This document shows positions 10,150 through 16,692 of a stretch of 64,000 bases of DNA, piece by piece (position 1 is the stretch's first letter; each line of letters opens with the position of its first letter). The notes under the pieces are model-generated. The model saw nothing but the letters and a program-made list of their open reading frames with translations. It was not told where the DNA came from and did not search any database. Location of the stretch: contig CAKQBW010000001.1 in assembly GCA_934216505.1 (NCBI GenBank), positions 85,788 through 149,787 on the forward strand, given 5' to 3'. The position numbers and the translations under genes were made by a program. This DNA is from an uncultured Alphaproteobacteria bacterium. Lineage in GTDB: Bacteria; Pseudomonadota; Alphaproteobacteria; CAAHEQ01; UBA3637.

Positions 10150-11040
10150 CTATTGTTTTTTGAAAGATTTGTCAAGAGATGAATTCATTGCCTGAGCCCC
10201 TGACACAATGTCAATCAATTCATTTGTGATTTGATTTTGCCGTTCTTGTTGATAAATAAGGTCCAATTGAGCCAACTTTTTTTCAATGTTTTTTTCGGCT
10301 TGTTGCATATGAAGCATACGAATATAGTGTTCGCAGGCCAAACTACTGGTTAAAGCCTGAACCAAAAAAACAATTAAGTATTCTTGAGAAAGAGCCGAAA
10401 AAAGACTTTCGTTTTCGGGGTTAATAAGGGGAAGCATGCGCCCCGACCAAGGTGTTTCTTTGAGTTGTTTTAAGATTTCTTCAGAAAAAGGGAGTAATTG
10501 TAATTTTTGTGGTTGGAAAGAGTTGTTTTCTTTTTTGTTATAAAAAAGGAGGACTTTTTCAAAACTATCGGCAGAAATAAGTTGATTTACTTTTGTTAAA
10601 ATAGTATCGGCCAAAGAAGAAATTTCACTGAGTGTATTTGAGTTTGAATAGGAAAAATCAGGTTTTAATCCCTTTGAAAAAAAAGAAGTGCTCAATCTTT
10701 TACCGATAGTGATGAGTTTCATGGAAGCCAGAGGGGATTCTTTTTTAACCTCTTGAACCAATTCCCAATTAAAGCGTCCCACTAATCCATTGTCTGATCC
10801 AATGACAATAACCAATGTTTTTCCTGATTTTTGATGATTGCTTGTGTTGGGTAAAGAAAAAAACTCTTGACGAAATAGCCCTTGAAAAGCAAGACTAATC
10901 GTTTGGGTGTATTGATTTAATGAAACCAATGCTTTTTCGTATTGCCCTACACTGACAGAGGACAACAACTTCATTGTGGTCACAATACCATATAAATCAT
11001 TCGTTGTTTTAATTCTTTTTTTTAATACTTCCTGAGTCAT
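10150..11040 (-). CDS. atpG: ATP synthase gamma subunit (N-ATPase-type operon)
   Basis: 296 aa, gamma-family. Last gene of the atpDCQRBEFAG run. Confidence 0.75.
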   Translation of the reverse strand: MTQEVLKKRIKTTNDLYGIVTTMKLLSSVSVGQYEKALVSLNQYTQTISLAFQGLFRQEFFSLPNTSNHQKSGKTLVIVIGSDNGLVGRFNWELVQEVKKESPLASMKLITIGKRLSTSFFSKGLKPDFSYSNSNTLSEISSLADTILTKVNQLISADSFEKVLLFYNKKENNSFQPQKLQLLPFSEEILKQLKETPWSGRMLPLINPENESLFSALSQEYLIVFLVQALTSSLACEHYIRMLHMQQAEKNIEKKLAQLDLIYQQERQNQITNELIDIVSGAQAMNSSLDKSFKKQ

Positions 11041-12563
11041 TTTTCAAAAGGCAGTCCTTTTTTAATAAATTCTTTTTGAAAGACATCTAACATCTTTCTT
11101 TTTTGTTCATCGGTTATTTTTTCCCGTTTGAGGATATGGTGAGAAATATCCGAAAATTTACCCATCATCAGTTGATGAATTACCTCTTGTGCTTTCAAAA
11201 TTTGTTTTTCGTCCATTTGGTCCAACAATCCTTCGTTCAAGGCCATAAACAAACCGATTTGCGTTATTGCATCAACAGGAAAGTATTGCCTTTGGGTGAG
11301 GGCTGAACGAATAGCCTGACCTCTTTTTAACTTCATTAAAGTGGTCTTATCCATTTGCATGCCAAACTTTGAAAAAGATTCTAATTCTTCAAATTGGGCA
11401 TAAAATAGTTTTAAAGGACCAATTAAGGACCGATAAGCAGGCAGTTGGGCTTCTCCGCCCACACGGGAAACAGATCGCCCTGTGTCAATGGCTGGCATAA
11501 TGCCTTTTTGATACAGGTCATTGGACAGGTAAATTTGTCCATCTGTGATTGAAATGACATTCGTTGGAATATAGGCCGATATGTTGCCAGCTTCAGTCAG
11601 AACAATAGGTAGGGCTGTTAAAGAGCCCCCCCCAAATTTGGGGCGTAAATGAGTGGCCCGTTCCAATAATCTAGAGTGTAAGTAAAAAATATCCCCAGGA
11701 AAGGCTTCTCGGCCAGGAGGCGTTTTTAACAACAGCGACATTTGACGATAAGTTTGAGCATGGGCTGTTAAATCGTCATAAACAACCAAGACATCTTTTC
11801 CTTGATGCATAAAGTATTCTCCAATAGCTGTTGCCGAATAAGGGGCGATGTACTGCATCCCCGCTTCTTCATCACCACTGGCAATGACAACAACGCTTTG
11901 AGTGAGCATATCGTGTTCCTCTAAAGTATGAATGACACGGGCTGTATTACTTTGTCTTTGTCCGATGGCACAGTAAATACAAATAACGCCTGTTTCTTTT
12001 TGGTTTAAAATCGTATCCAAAGCGATGGCGGTTTTTCCAGTTTGTCTATCGCCCAAAATTAATTCCCGTTGTCCGCGTCCAATAGGAGTAAAGCAATCTA
12101 TGGCCTTAATTCCTGTTTGTAAGGGGGTATCCACAGGCGCACGCATCATAATTTCAGGGGCAGGGTGTTCTATTTCAGAAAACTCTTTTGTTAAAACTTT
12201 CCCCTTTTTATCCAAAGGTTCCCCTAATGGATTGATGATGCGTCCCAAAAGAGCGTTGCCCACGGGAATACTTAAAACTTGATGTGTTTGGGTTGCTTTA
12301 TCGCCCGCCTTTAAATTTTGGGAGTTTTTTAAAAACACAATGCCGACACTTTCCTCATTCAGGTTATGCACCATCGCAATAGCCTCATTTTTAAAATGGA
12401 GTAATTCGTTCAATTTGACTTCGCTGAGCCCTGAAACCAAGGCGGTTCCTGCGGCCATAGATAAAATTTCATTGTTTTCTTTTACTTTCAGGGAAAAAGA
12501 AGTTTTCTTGATGGCTTCCGTTGTGATTTTTTTTGCTGTTTCAGACACACTTTTTTTCATCAT
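11037..12563 (-). CDS. atpA: ATP synthase alpha subunit
   Basis: Walker A GDRQTGKT and the alpha-subunit signature. Confidence 0.9.
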   Translation of the reverse strand: MMKKSVSETAKKITTEAIKKTSFSLKVKENNEILSMAAGTALVSGLSEVKLNELLHFKNEAIAMVHNLNEESVGIVFLKNSQNLKAGDKATQTHQVLSIPVGNALLGRIINPLGEPLDKKGKVLTKEFSEIEHPAPEIMMRAPVDTPLQTGIKAIDCFTPIGRGQRELILGDRQTGKTAIALDTILNQKETGVICIYCAIGQRQSNTARVIHTLEEHDMLTQSVVVIASGDEEAGMQYIAPYSATAIGEYFMHQGKDVLVVYDDLTAHAQTYRQMSLLLKTPPGREAFPGDIFYLHSRLLERATHLRPKFGGGSLTALPIVLTEAGNISAYIPTNVISITDGQIYLSNDLYQKGIMPAIDTGRSVSRVGGEAQLPAYRSLIGPLKLFYAQFEELESFSKFGMQMDKTTLMKLKRGQAIRSALTQRQYFPVDAITQIGLFMALNEGLLDQMDEKQILKAQEVIHQLMMGKFSDISHHILKREKITDEQKRKMLDVFQKEFIKKGLPFEK

Positions 12564-14919: not shown

Positions 14920-15310
14920 CTGTTCCCTCCCGTTTATTTAATTGCATCAACCCTTTTGTTAGTCCCAATTCTAACCGTGTGAGGGAGAGGAGGGCTTCTT
15001 TTCGGTTTTCTTCCATTTGTTGAAAAGAAACTTTAATTTGATTTTTCAACTTTTCTAAATCATTATTTTGAATAGCCAAAGGGGTGGAAAGTAAAACTTC
15101 ATCCCCTTTTTTAACGACCACGCCTTTTTGACAGGCCACATAACTTGTTTTTCCATTTTCCTGATATTGAACAATGGTGGGTTTTAACGCATTGACAAAA
15201 TCCATGTGTTTTGGCAAAAGGGTAAAAAATCCGTCCAAGGCTTCAAAATCAACTTTTTGAACTTCTTTATCTAAAAAAACAGTGGTAGGGGTCAAAATTT
15301 TCAATCTCAT
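14912..15310 (-). CDS. atpC: ATP synthase epsilon subunit
   Basis: 132 aa, epsilon-family, translationally coupled to atpD. Confidence 0.8.
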
Positions 15311-16692
15311 TTTTTTTGACGCCTTTCAAATTTTTTAAGAGCTTCATCAATGGTACCAATCATAAAGAAATCATCTTCGGTTAAATCTTTGAATTCACCC
15401 GCTAAAATTCTTTTACACCCGATAATAGTGTCCTTTAAATCAACGGAACGACCACTCATACCAGTAAATTGGTTCGTGGTGTAGAAAGGTTGCGTTAAAA
15501 ACCGTTCCAATTTTCGGGCGGTTAAAACTGTTTGTTGGTCTTTTTCGGGGAGTTCATCAAAACCCAACATGGCAATGATATCCTTTAATTCTTCATATTG
15601 CGCCAAGGTCTTGCGTACTTCAATCGCTACCTGATAATGTTCTTCCCCCACAATGTCAGGAGTGAGCATATTTGAGTTAGATTGTAAAGGATCAACGGCA
15701 GGATATAATCCTTGGGCAGCCCGATTTCTAGAAAGTACAATACTGGAAGAAAGGTGGGTAAAAGTATGGGTCGCTGAGGGATCTGTAAAATCATCGGCGG
15801 GCACATAAACAGCCTGAATAGAGGTAATAGCCGCTTCTTCGGTTGAGGAAATACGTTCTTCTAAATCTGCTAAATCTGTCCCCAAAGTCGGTTGATATCC
15901 TACACGGGAAGGAATTTGTCCCAATGAAACAGAAACTTCTGATCCTGCTTGAATAAAGCGGAATATATTATCAATTAAAAGCAAAACATCTGTTTTCTTT
16001 TCATCACGGAAGTACTCAGCCATTGTCAGAGCGGATAAAGCCACCCGAAAGCGGACACCAGGGGGTTCATTCATTTGCCCAAAAACCATAACCGTTTTGG
16101 GCAGAACACCCGCTTGTTTCATTTCTTGGTAAAGTTGTTCCCCTTCACGGGAACGTTCGCCAATTCCTGCAAAAATACTTACCCCTTCATATCGGCCAAC
16201 CATGTTGTTTATCATTTCTGTGATTAAAACAGTTTTACCAACACCAGCGCCCCCAAATAGACCAGCCTTTCCCCCTCTTTCCATCGGGCTTAAAAGGTCA
16301 ATGGCTTTAATGCCCGTGATAAAGATTTTGTTGGACACATCTAATTTAGAGATAGGTTGAGGCTGAGCGTGAATAGATTGAATAGGGGCGTTTTTTAAAG
16401 GAGGGAGGTTGTCAATAGGATTCCCCAAAACATTGAACATACGGCCCAAGGTCTTTGTTCCGACTGGAACAGAAATAGGGTGCCCCAAATCAATCACTTT
16501 CATTCCACGGGCTAAGCCTTGGGTTTCCCCCATAGCCAAAGACCGCACTGTTGTGGTATTCACATAACTTTGGACCTCCAAAATCAAATCATTGACTTGA
16601 AGGGCTTGATAAATCGGGGGGAGGTGGTGTTCAAATTTTACCTGAACAACACTTCCTGAAATAGCCACAATTTTTCCTGTATAAGCAACCAT
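15307..16692 (-). CDS. atpD: ATP synthase beta subunit
   Basis: Walker A GGAGVGKT and the DELSEED-region equivalent. Confidence 0.9.

What the first reader, a model, noticed from the sequence alone, without database searches (positions are those of the whole stretch)
10150..16692. ATP synthase locus has N-ATPase (Na+-translocating N-type) architecture, not canonical F1Fo order
The gene order is atpD-atpC-atpQ-atpR-atpB-atpE-atpF-atpA-atpG, with beta and epsilon first, and no delta gene. Two extra small membrane proteins lie between epsilon and a, one with an Arg in each of its two TM helices. This matches the atpDCQRBEFAG order described for N-ATPases. The c subunit carries a full Na+-ligand set (helix 1 Glu in GLGEG; helix 2 ESTAIY). 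Combined with the [FeFe] hydrogenase at the window start, this suggests a Na+-based or anaerobic bioenergetic lifestyle. N-ATPases normally coexist with a standard F-ATPase; if this is the only ATP synthase in the genome, that would be unusual.
Basis: partly seen in the sequence, partly recalled or inferred. Interest (0 to 1): 0.7.

Follow-up and report, generated by a model that had tools for sequence, protein, structure and literature searches.

The report
N-type sodium ATPase operon, gut alphaproteobacterium
The nine genes really are an N-type (alternate F1Fo) rotary ATPase operon with a sodium-type ion site. It belongs to an uncultured gut alphaproteobacterium and is a new member of a known family; whether it is the cell's only ATPase could not be checked.

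Summary
Nine tightly packed minus-strand genes (16692 to 10150) run atpD-atpC-atpQ-atpR-atpB-atpE-atpF-atpA-atpG.

- There is no delta gene. Subunit b is long (258 aa) and has a delta/OSCP-like C-terminus.
- AtpR is present, with three hydrophobic segments and both family-conserved arginines (R54, R84).
- The c subunit carries E30/E63/S64/T65/Y68. This matches the two-carboxylate Na+ site of Fusobacterium nucleatum c11, not the H+-selective ETM..Y variant of Burkholderia pseudomallei.
- All nine proteins score best against NCBIfam 'alternate F1F0 ATPase' models.
- AtpD and AtpA fall on the N-type side of the N/F split (100/100 and 98/100 bootstraps).
- AtpD shows no affinity to an alphaproteobacterial F-type beta subunit.

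The host is an uncultured Alphaproteobacterium from animal guts. Four related MAGs keep the same operon, and one also keeps the housekeeping flanks, so it looks vertically inherited rather than a recent island.

N-ATPases are well catalogued (1807 in ProAD), so this is a new member of a known kind.

A 2025 GTDB-wide survey names only Chloroflexota genus T78 as N-only. Ion specificity and direction of operation are inferred, not shown.

The parts
15307..16692 (-). atpD, N-type beta subunit (461 aa)
   Evidence: The best NCBIfam model is TIGR03305 'alternate F1F0 ATPase beta' at 725.7 bits, against 647.1 for the F-type model TIGR01039. Walker A (GGAGVGKT), the catalytic GERSREG motif and Walker B (LLLIDNIF) are all intact (read from the translation). 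It falls on the N-type side of the N/F split in 100/100 bootstraps.
14912..15310 (-). atpC, epsilon subunit (132 aa)
   Evidence: PF02823. TIGR03166 'alternate F1F0 epsilon' scores 101.1 bits, above its cutoff of 100.1. It overlaps atpD by 4 nt.
14605..14919 (-). atpQ (gene 1), small membrane protein with 2 hydrophobic segments (104 aa)
   Evidence: PF09527 ATPase_gene1 scores 36.9 bits against a cutoff of 26.6. TIGR02230 scores 47.6 against 46.7. Two hydrophobic segments were found.
14328..14621 (-). atpR, the N-ATPase hallmark subunit (97 aa), with 3 hydrophobic segments, R54 and R84
   Evidence: PF12966 AtpR scores 34.5 bits against a cutoff of 26. A profile search found homologues in the same operon position in 41 N-type loci. 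The two conserved Arg columns align with R54 and R84.
13629..14327 (-). atpB, a subunit (232 aa)
   Evidence: PF00119. TIGR03306 'altF1_A' scores 244.9 bits against 118.5 for the generic TIGR01131. The essential stator Arg is present in ...SLAFRLYGNVLSG... (read from the translation).
13349..13627 (-). atpE, c subunit (92 aa) with ion site E30/E63/S64/T65/Y68
   Evidence: TIGR03322 'alt F0 C' scores 117.8 bits against 48.6 for TIGR01260. It aligns residue for residue with F. nucleatum c11 (3zk1, GIGEG...AESTGIY), and phmmer also matches it to I. tartaricus c11 (1yce). The EESTY site is shared with 33 of the 56 N-side c subunits scored.
12563..13339 (-). atpF, long b subunit with a delta-like C-terminus (258 aa)
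   Evidence: PF00430 matches residues 7-120 and PF00213 OSCP matches residues 165-246 (24.2 bits against a cutoff of 22.3). TIGR03321 'alt F0 B' scores 156.6 bits against 28.8 for TIGR01144.
11037..12563 (-). atpA, N-type alpha subunit (508 aa)
   Evidence: TIGR03324 scores 671.4 bits against 613.6 for TIGR00962. It falls on the N-type side of the split in 98/100 bootstraps. Walker A (GDRQTGKT) and the Arg-finger region (SVSRVGG) are present.
10150..11040 (-). atpG, gamma subunit (296 aa)
   Evidence: TIGR03323 'alt F1 gamma' scores 223.7 bits against 136.7 for TIGR01146. PF00231.
16722..16750 (-). Candidate promoter of the operon (TTGACT-17-TAAACT), followed by a GGGGG ribosome-binding site before the atpD ATG
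   Evidence: Consensus scan and sequence. This is only a pattern match. The number of promoter-like sites in the region is no higher than in shuffled sequence.

Best explanation
This is a complete and apparently functional N-type (N1No, 'alternate F1Fo') rotary ATPase operon, atpDCQRBEFAG. It belongs to an uncultured, low-GC Alphaproteobacterium from animal guts.

Anatomy:
- An alpha3beta3 head with intact catalytic motifs, plus a gamma/epsilon central stalk.
- A single long b subunit whose C-terminus replaces the missing delta subunit as the peripheral-stalk cap.
- An a subunit carrying the stator arginine.
- A c-ring whose subunits carry the two-carboxylate Na+ site (Glu in helix 1; Glu-Ser-Thr...Tyr in helix 2).
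- AtpQ and AtpR, small membrane proteins co-translated between epsilon and a. AtpR's two membrane-embedded arginines are thought to pair with the c-subunit carboxylates during ring assembly or regulation (a proposal by Dibrova et al., not tested).

Inferred mode of action:
- The enzyme couples ATP hydrolysis or synthesis to Na+ movement.
- The host carries an electron-bifurcating-type [FeFe] hydrogenase and is probably fermentative. In such a host the most likely role is ATP-driven Na+ extrusion, which builds the sodium-motive force and membrane potential.
- Operation in reverse as a Na+-driven synthase is not excluded.

Shown here: gene content and order, family membership by sequence, ion-site residues, and conservation in the lineage.
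Inferred: Na+ specificity, direction of operation, and the role of AtpR.
For: - Gene order and tight coupling.
- All nine proteins score best against the 'alternate F1F0 ATPase' NCBIfam models, and the margins over the generic F-type models are large for a, c, b, gamma and epsilon. AtpR (PF12966), AtpQ (PF09527) and the OSCP-like tail of b all score above their Pfam gathering thresholds.
- 65 fetched loci sit on the N side of the split (L002-L066 minus F-type L065). Nearly all with enough sequence show the D-C-Q-(R)-a-c-b-A-G order, with AtpD 58-81% identical; L047 and L064 are permuted and L039 is scrambled. The 16 F-type loci run a-c-b-A-G-D-C and are 54-58% identical.
- In NJ trees the N/F split has 100/100 (AtpD) and 98/100 (AtpA) support, with the window on the N side.
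- Against solved structures, AtpD scores 511 bits against Paracoccus beta, below bovine mitochondrial (541), spinach (538) and Fusobacterium (539) beta. It therefore shows no affinity to the host class's F-type enzyme.
- The c-subunit site aligns with the F. nucleatum Na+ c-ring and matches I. tartaricus c11. It is EESTY in three of the four gut relatives and EETTY in the fourth.
- Both AtpR arginines fall in the conserved Arg columns of 41 homologues.
- The four related gut Alphaproteobacteria MAGs keep the whole operon. L002 also keeps the NADK / HU-AccD-dehydrogenase-DUF2155-MlaD flanks.
- The operon's GC content (0.36-0.37) matches its surroundings.
- A HydABC-type hydrogenase lies upstream.
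Against: - Seven of the nine proteins fall below the strict curated cutoffs of the 'alternate' NCBIfam models (for example beta 725.7 against 752, alpha 671.4 against 750.5). This is a divergent branch, and public annotation calls these proteins plain F0F1 ATP synthase.
- Prediction of Na+ specificity from sequence was wrong for the B. pseudomallei N-ATPase, which is H+-selective, although its site is E/E-T-M..Y rather than E/E-S-T..Y.
- No experiment, expression data or whole-genome context supports the proposed direction of operation.
- The trees are neighbour-joining only. The F-type outgroup was limited to Firmicutes, Patescibacteria, cyanobacteria and a few others, with no alphaproteobacterial F-type sequence. 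That gap is covered only by the PDB score comparison.
- Two gut relatives (L002, L004) have Lys instead of the second AtpR arginine.
Confidence: 0.85

Rival explanations
1. An ordinary F-type ATP synthase whose genes happen to be ordered beta-epsilon first. Bacteroides has an atpDC-first F-type operon of this sort, so the gene order alone would be misleading.
For: Koumandou & Kossida note that Bacteroides fragilis has a similar locus order without atpR. The window proteins also pass the generic F-type NCBIfam cutoffs (TIGR01039 at 647 against 463; TIGR00962 at 614 against 484), and public records name them F0F1 ATP synthase.
Against: AtpR is present above its Pfam threshold with both conserved arginines. 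There is no delta gene, and subunit b has a delta-like tail. Every subunit scores higher on the N-type model. The N/F split has 100/98 bootstrap support. AtpD is 58-64% identical to N-type enzymes from unrelated phyla but only 54-58% identical to F-type enzymes.
Confidence: 0.03
2. An N-type ATPase that is coupled to H+ rather than Na+, like the B. pseudomallei enzyme. It would act as a proton pump for pH homeostasis in acidic gut compartments such as the abomasum.
For: The only N-type c-ring studied biochemically is H+-selective, despite an earlier Na+ prediction from sequence. ProAD predicts about half of N-ATPases to be H+-specific (893 of 1807). One of the closest relatives comes from goat abomasum.
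Against: The B. pseudomallei site is E30/E61/T62/M63/Y66, which lacks the Ser and Thr ligands. The window has the full E/E-S-T..Y set, identical to the structurally proven Na+ site of F. nucleatum c11. It also matches the Halothece locus (L063), which I take to be a relative of Aphanothece halophytica; that organism's enzyme was reported as Na+-dependent (title cited).
Confidence: 0.15
3. A recently acquired, dispensable accessory island, as in Methanosarcina acetivorans. It would have no core role and might be decaying.
For: N-ATPase operons are described as highly mobile and dispensable. Flanks differ among relatives L003-L005.
Against: All nine genes are intact with their catalytic motifs. 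The operon is kept in four relatives spanning 72-81% AtpD identity, and in at least 120 protein clusters at 75% identity or more. Its GC content equals that of its surroundings. It sits between housekeeping genes (NAD kinase, pheST, HU, accD), and L002 shares this synteny. The gut clade is monophyletic at 100/99 bootstraps, which points to one old acquisition followed by vertical descent.
Confidence: 0.05

Closest known systems
N-ATPase family (Dibrova, Galperin & Mulkidjanian 2010; NCBIfam 'alternate F1F0 ATPase' TIGR03305/03166/02230/03165/03306/03322/03321/03324/03323)
   Same: Same atpDCQRBEFAG order. AtpR with two membrane arginines, and AtpQ. No delta gene, and a long b subunit with a delta-like tail. 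Glu in both c-subunit helices plus ESTxxY. Its subunits cluster with N-type enzymes.
   Different: It is a divergent branch, and seven of the nine proteins fall below the curated model cutoffs. It sits among housekeeping genes in an animal-gut, probably anaerobic, alphaproteobacterial lineage and appears vertically inherited. The classic cases are marine, halotolerant or plasmid-borne.
N-type Na+-dependent F1Fo ATP synthase of Aphanothece halophytica (Soontharapirakkul et al. 2011; known here only from its title, cited; the link between Aphanothece and Halothece is from memory)
   Same: The Halothece locus L063 has the same operon order and the same EESTY c-subunit site. Its AtpD is 62% identical to the window's.
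   Different: That host is a halotolerant cyanobacterium with a second, H+ F-type enzyme, and the reported role is salt tolerance. The host here is a gut heterotroph.
Burkholderia pseudomallei N-type ATPase (c17 ring; Schulz et al. 2017)
   Same: The same family and operon type, with a two-carboxylate c subunit.
   Different: The B. pseudomallei site is E/E-T-M..Y and is H+-selective. The window's site is E/E-S-T..Y. Its helix-1 packing motif is AxGxAxAxG, against GxSxGxGxG here, so ring size cannot be carried over.
Fusobacterium nucleatum F-type Na+ ATP synthase c11 ring (PDB 3zk1), with the two-carboxylate Na+ motif
   Same: Identical ion-site residues in the alignment: E32/E65/S66/T67/Y70 there and E30/E63/S64/T65/Y68 here.
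   Different: That enzyme is a canonical F-type. I recall that it has a delta subunit and no AtpR; this was not tested here.
Chloroflexota genus T78, in which an N-ATPase is the only rotary ATPase (ProAD, Litvin et al. 2025)
   Different: Its enzyme is predicted to be H+-coupled and it belongs to a different phylum. Whether the present lineage is N-only is unknown.

Membership tests
N-ATPase (alternate F1Fo) | Operon order atpD-atpC-atpQ-atpR-atpB-atpE-atpF-atpA-atpG | tested here: met
   The same order is seen in nearly all of the 65 N-side reference loci, with L047 and L064 permuted.
N-ATPase (alternate F1Fo) | [quoted passage not shown] | tested here: met
   PF12966 scores 34.5 bits against a cutoff of 26. 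There are three hydrophobic segments, and R54 and R84 fall in the two conserved Arg columns of 41 homologues. The TIGR03165 score (20.2) is below its cutoff of 55.5.
N-ATPase (alternate F1Fo) | AtpQ (gene 1, PF09527) instead of AtpI | tested here: met
   PF09527 scores 36.9 against 26.6, and TIGR02230 scores 47.6 against 46.7.
N-ATPase (alternate F1Fo) | No delta gene; long b subunit whose C-terminus aligns with delta/OSCP | tested here: met
   atpF and atpA overlap by 1 nt. Subunit b is 258 aa, with PF00213 OSCP matching residues 165-246 at 24.2 bits against a cutoff of 22.3.
N-ATPase (alternate F1Fo) | c subunit with Glu in both helices and the ESTxxY Na+ ligand set | tested here: met
   E30, E63, S64, T65 and Y68 align with the ion-site residues of 3zk1; 1yce is also matched by phmmer. 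The same EESTY site occurs in 33 of the 56 N-side c subunits scored.
N-ATPase (alternate F1Fo) | Subunits cluster with N-type enzymes, separately from F-type | tested here: met
   The NJ bootstrap for the N/F split is 100/100 (AtpD) and 98/100 (AtpA). The N-type model beats the F-type model for all subunits. Paracoccus beta does not score above other F-type betas. Caveat: the method was NJ only and the F-type sampling was limited.
N-ATPase (alternate F1Fo) | Scores above the curated NCBIfam cutoffs of the 'alternate F1F0' models | tested here: inconclusive
   These models are the best hits for all nine proteins, but only epsilon and gene 1 exceed the cutoffs. Beta scores 725.7 against 752, alpha 671.4 against 750.5, gamma 223.7 against 282.4, a 244.9 against 302.1, c 117.8 against 130.9 and b 156.6 against 224.7. 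These are strict 'exception'-type thresholds rather than a biological criterion.
N-ATPase (alternate F1Fo) | Present as a second enzyme beside a normal F- or A-type ATPase | not testable with these tools
   Only 64 kb of the genome is visible, and it holds no paralogous atp genes.
N-ATPase (alternate F1Fo) | Na+ translocation | not testable with these tools
   This is a sequence prediction only. The B. pseudomallei counter-example shows that biochemistry is needed.
Canonical F-type ATP synthase | Separate delta (atpH) gene, and no AtpR | tested here: not met
   There is no atpH ORF or room for one, and AtpR is present.
Canonical F-type ATP synthase | Alpha and beta branch within F-type enzymes of the host class (Alphaproteobacteria) | tested here: not met

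The most novel reading that the evidence does not exclude
The N-type enzyme may be the only rotary ATPase of this gut alphaproteobacterial lineage. In that case an anaerobic descendant of aerobic Alphaproteobacteria would have replaced its H+ F-type ATP synthase with a laterally acquired Na+ N-ATPase. That enzyme would then carry all membrane energisation, and possibly ATP synthesis.

This would break the 'always second' rule in a second phylum and would be the first case with a Na+-type site. It would also argue against the view that N-ATPases cannot replace the housekeeping enzyme.

The evidence is compatible but not positive:
- The operon sits in a housekeeping neighbourhood.
- It is conserved across the lineage and all nine genes are intact.
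- It is annotated as plain F0F1, which could hide such a case.

Against it, a GTDB-wide survey singled out only Chloroflexota genus T78 as N-only.
Probability: 0.25. Interest if true: 0.6.

Novelty: new member of a known kind. Interest (0 to 1): 0.32.

Why it matters
N-ATPases are usually described as mobile accessory Na+ or H+ pumps of marine, halotolerant or pathogenic bacteria. This one appears to be a stable, vertically inherited component in a widespread clade of uncultured gut Alphaproteobacteria that also carry a bifurcating-type [FeFe] hydrogenase.

Public annotation labels these proteins as ordinary F0F1 ATP synthase. Metabolic reconstructions of these gut MAGs are therefore likely to assume a proton-coupled ATP synthase, where a sodium-coupled and probably pumping enzyme is predicted.

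If a whole-genome check showed it to be the only rotary ATPase, it would be a natural test of whether N-ATPases can serve as the housekeeping enzyme. As things stand it is a correct but unsurprising family assignment.

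Tried and rejected
1. Looking for a second ATPase.
- tblastn of the nine subunits against the whole window finds only the operon itself and the expected alpha/beta cross-hits.
Its peptide patterns would not match typical alphaproteobacterial F-type beta subunits, so the absence of such hits from the four related MAGs says nothing.
- The look-up of encoding contigs returns only 10 kb on either side and accepts only window proteins or search hits, so contigs cannot be walked.
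- I found no use of the remaining protein searches that would link a hit to the same genome, so I left them unspent.

2. Literature.
- Searches for RF32 or CAG-239 together with ATP synthase, hydrogenase or metabolism found no metabolic description of gut Alphaproteobacteria.
- My guess that the lineage is GTDB order RF32 comes from memory and remains untested.
- The ProAD supplement held as text has no per-taxon table.
- The Aphanothece halophytica paper (PMC3060469) is not held, so only its title is cited.

3. Other dead ends.
- An exact-protein look-up for 35353..37056 found nothing on record.
- One Pfam batch failed because I gave a non-coding coordinate range and was not repeated, so ORFs at 38.4-43.9 kb remain unannotated.

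4. Considered and rejected.
- A rearranged F-type operon and a decaying island (see the rival explanations).
- Predicting c-ring size from the helix-1 motif GxSxGxGxG. There is no reliable rule, so no stoichiometry is claimed.

5. The promoter and terminator scan found no more sites than in shuffled sequence. The promoter listed under parts is only a candidate.

Full report
**Observation**

The ORF listing shows nine consecutive minus-strand genes.
- atpD 16692..15307
- atpC 15310..14912
- a 104-aa membrane protein 14919..14605
- a 97-aa membrane protein 14621..14328
- atpB (a) 14327..13629
- atpE (c) 13627..13349
- atpF (b) 13339..12563
- atpA 12563..11037
- atpG 11040..10150

Neighbouring genes overlap or are at most 9 nt apart (-4, -8, -17, 0, 1, 9, -1, -4). 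This is typical of one translationally coupled operon and leaves no space for a delta gene. Pfam assigns every product. The two small proteins are ATPase_gene1/AtpQ (PF09527, 36.9 bits against a cutoff of 26.6) and AtpR (PF12966, 34.5 against 26). Subunit b has an ATP-synt_B N-terminal half and an OSCP (delta) match over residues 165-246 (24.2 against 22.3). One correction: AtpR has three hydrophobic segments, with its only two arginines (R54, R84) in the second and third.

**Which family**

Against NCBIfam, all nine proteins score best on the 'alternate F1F0 ATPase' models, which are the N-ATPase models. The margins over the generic F-type models are as follows.

| Subunit | N-type model (bits) | Generic F-type model (bits) |
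|---|---|---|
| beta | 725.7 | 647.1 |
| alpha | 671.4 | 613.6 |
| gamma | 223.7 | 136.7 |
| a | 244.9 | 118.5 |
| c | 117.8 | 48.6 |
| b | 156.6 | 28.8 |
| epsilon | 101.1 | 41.8 |

Seven of the nine proteins nevertheless fall below the strict curated cutoffs. That explains why public records name the close homologues simply 'F0F1 ATP synthase subunit beta'.

The defining features of the family were taken from Dibrova et al. 2010:
- the atpDCQRBEFAG order;
- AtpR as the tell-tale subunit, with conserved arginines in two of its three TM segments;
- AtpQ rather than AtpI;
- no delta gene but a long b subunit with a delta-like C-terminus;
- Glu in both c-subunit helices plus ESTxxY;
- separate phylogenetic clustering;
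- presence as a second enzyme.

All but the last could be tested from sequence, and all of those were met.

**Related loci and phylogeny**

A scan of one genome per GTDB species returned 80 loci. I called ORFs in each and matched them to the nine window proteins.
- On the N side (L002-L066 minus F-type L065), nearly all loci with enough sequence show D-C-Q-(R)-a-c-b-A-G, with AtpD 58-81% identical to the window. L047 and L064 are permuted, and L039 is scrambled and was left out of the trees.
- L065 and L067-L081 show the F-type order a-c-b-A-G-D-C, with AtpD 54-58% identical.

Neighbour-joining trees with 100 bootstraps give the N/F bipartition 100/100 for AtpD and 98/100 for AtpA, with the window on the N side. 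The F-type loci fetched included no Alphaproteobacteria. To cover that gap I compared AtpD with solved structures. The Paracoccus denitrificans beta subunit scores 511 bits, below bovine mitochondrial (541), spinach chloroplast (538) and Fusobacterium (539) beta. AtpD therefore has no special affinity to the host class's F-type enzyme.

**AtpR**

BLAST is too weak for this small protein. I therefore collected ORFs ending at the start of atpB in the N-type loci and built a profile from the first phmmer hits. This recovered 41 homologues. Two alignment columns are at least 80% Arg, and they coincide with R54 and R84 of the window protein. Among the close relatives, L005 and L003 keep both arginines (L003 by manual translation). 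L002 and L004 have Lys at the second position.

**Ion site**

phmmer against PDB chains aligns the c subunit with F. nucleatum c11 (3zk1...GIGEGYAA...AESTGIY...) and also matches I. tartaricus c11 (1yce). Window residues E30, E63, S64, T65 and Y68 fall on E32, E65, S66, T67 and Y70 of 3zk1. This is the two-carboxylate Na+ motif.

Of the 56 N-side c subunits scored, 33 have the same EESTY set. They include a Halothece MAG and three of the four gut relatives; L004 has EETTY. The only N-type ring studied biochemically, from B. pseudomallei, has E30/E61/T62/M63/Y66. It is H+-selective and forms a c17 ring. The window's site resembles the proven Na+ sites rather than that one, so Na+ coupling is the better prediction. 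I put it at about 0.7 to 0.8, but it remains a prediction. The helix-1 packing motif here is GxSxGxGxG. I make no claim about ring size.

**Functional integrity**

All of the following are visible in the translations:
- Walker A in beta (GGAGVGKT) and alpha (GDRQTGKT);
- the catalytic GERSREG motif;
- Walker B (LLLIDNIF);
- the alpha Arg-finger region (SVSRVGG);
- the stator Arg of subunit a (AFRLYGNVLSG).

A candidate promoter (TTGACT-17-TAAACT, 16750..16722) and a GGGGG ribosome-binding site precede atpD. The scan found no more promoter-like sites than in shuffled sequence, so this is weak evidence.

**Host and context**

- Contigs carrying the identical genes occur in several ENA and Logan metagenome assemblies.
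- The nearest genomes are four MAGs titled Alphaproteobacteria bacterium: goat abomasum RGIG1600 (81% AtpD identity), a 'Nepal' sample (79%), roe deer jejunum RGIG4347 (75%) and INTA.CYC.063 (72%).
- At least 120 protein clusters at 75% identity or more exist.
- The window's neighbours are housekeeping genes: NAD kinase, pheST, ppa, dnaX, HU and accD. There is also a short HprK / EIIA-Man / HPr-type cluster and a DnaX with DUF3646. To my knowledge these last features are typical of Alphaproteobacteria.
- L002 shares the flanks on both sides. L003-L005 keep the operon in other surroundings.
- GC content in the operon (0.36-0.37) matches its neighbourhood.
- The gut clade is monophyletic at 100/99 bootstraps.

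Together these points indicate one older acquisition followed by vertical inheritance, not a recent island. Upstream, at the window start, lies a HydABC-type [FeFe] hydrogenase. It consists of a NuoE-like protein, a NuoF-like protein and HydA with Fe_hyd_lg_C. This fits an anaerobic, fermentative lifestyle.

**Mechanism proposed**

The enzyme is a rotary N1No ATPase. Its single b-delta fusion forms the peripheral stalk. Its c-ring binds Na+ between E63/S64 of one subunit and E30/T65/Y68 of neighbouring helices. Ions would enter and leave through the half-channels of subunit a, past its stator arginine.

In a fermenting gut bacterium that makes ATP by substrate-level phosphorylation, the likely direction is ATP hydrolysis driving Na+ export. 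That would supply the sodium-motive force for transport. Succinyl-CoA synthetase and GAPDH genes are in the window. I put this direction at about 0.55. Na+-driven ATP synthesis is possible if primary Na+ pumps exist elsewhere in the genome. The title of the Aphanothece paper cited indicates that an N-type enzyme can act as a Na+-dependent synthase. AtpR's arginines probably pair with the c-ring carboxylates during assembly (a proposal by Dibrova et al., untested).

**The 'only ATPase' idea**

This is the part of the finding that would make it interesting, and I could not test it.
- The window has no other atp genes.
- The literature is consistent that N-ATPases accompany an F- or A-type enzyme.
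- The GTDB-wide ProAD survey counted 1807 N-type enzymes and names just one N-only genus, T78 in Chloroflexota, predicted to be H+-coupled.
- That survey's rule for calling N-type (beta-epsilon-X-X-a-c-(b-delta)-alpha-gamma) would have caught this operon. If many gut alphaproteobacterial genera were N-only, it would probably have been remarked on.

I therefore put the N-only reading at about 0.25.

**Verdict**

The Na+ prediction is reasonable but unproven. The sole-enzyme speculation remains open. This is a new, somewhat divergent member of a well-catalogued family in an unusual host group, and it is of modest interest unless the whole-genome check shows that it stands alone.

Noticed in passing
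window 1-2669 (+): A HydABC-type, putatively electron-bifurcating [FeFe] hydrogenase. The C-terminal part of a NuoF-like HydB (ORF 37..921) is cut by the window start, and HydA lies at 918..2669 (Fer2_4, NADH-G_4Fe-4S_3, Fe_hyd_lg_C, Fe_hyd_SSU). On an identical contig (L082) a NuoE-like HydC lies upstream of HydB. Such a hydrogenase seems notable in an alphaproteobacterium.
   Followed up: partly
window 16768-16796 (+): A perfect sigma-70 consensus (TTGACA-17-TATAAT) lies exactly at the mechanical TTG start of the NAD-kinase ORF, divergent from atpD. The real NADK start is therefore probably the downstream ATG. The gene caller gives 249 aa rather than 261.
   Followed up: partly
window 17550-18215 (-): A 221-aa ORF with no Pfam hit. 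Its N-terminus (…FGATKLEVVAVFFVIIILA…) looks like a type IV pilin or pseudopilin leader followed by a hydrophobic helix, and its C-terminal half is very Cys-rich. A prepilin peptidase (Peptidase_A24) gene lies at 29883..30581.
   Followed up: no
window 45387-46253 (+): A diadenylate cyclase (DAC, PF02457) gene lies next to sucCD. From memory, c-di-AMP synthesis is uncommon in Alphaproteobacteria.
   Followed up: no
window ~5459-6640 (+): A cluster of a short HprK (C-terminal domain only), EIIA-Man and an HPr-like protein, followed by two MlaD-domain ORFs and DUF2155. From memory, this PTS-regulatory module is characteristic of Alphaproteobacteria. It supports the host assignment independently of the atp genes.
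   Followed up: partly
window 24079-24174 (-): A bacterial small SRP RNA (Rfam RF00169, 49.3 bits) lies next to dnaX. Five tRNAs are at 5410, 38050, 38184, 40999 and 62596.
   Followed up: yes
L002 and L004 (AtpR ORFs at about 12079-12372 in L002): In two of the four gut relatives the second conserved AtpR arginine is replaced by lysine, while the first is kept. This is a small departure from the family's 'two Arg' hallmark.
   Followed up: partly
window 56200-56952 (-): A metallo-beta-lactamase-fold protein that also hits the Anti-Pycsar Apyc1 Pfam family. It sits among housekeeping genes (tatD, holB, tmk) and is probably an ordinary MBL hydrolase, but this was not examined.
   Followed up: no
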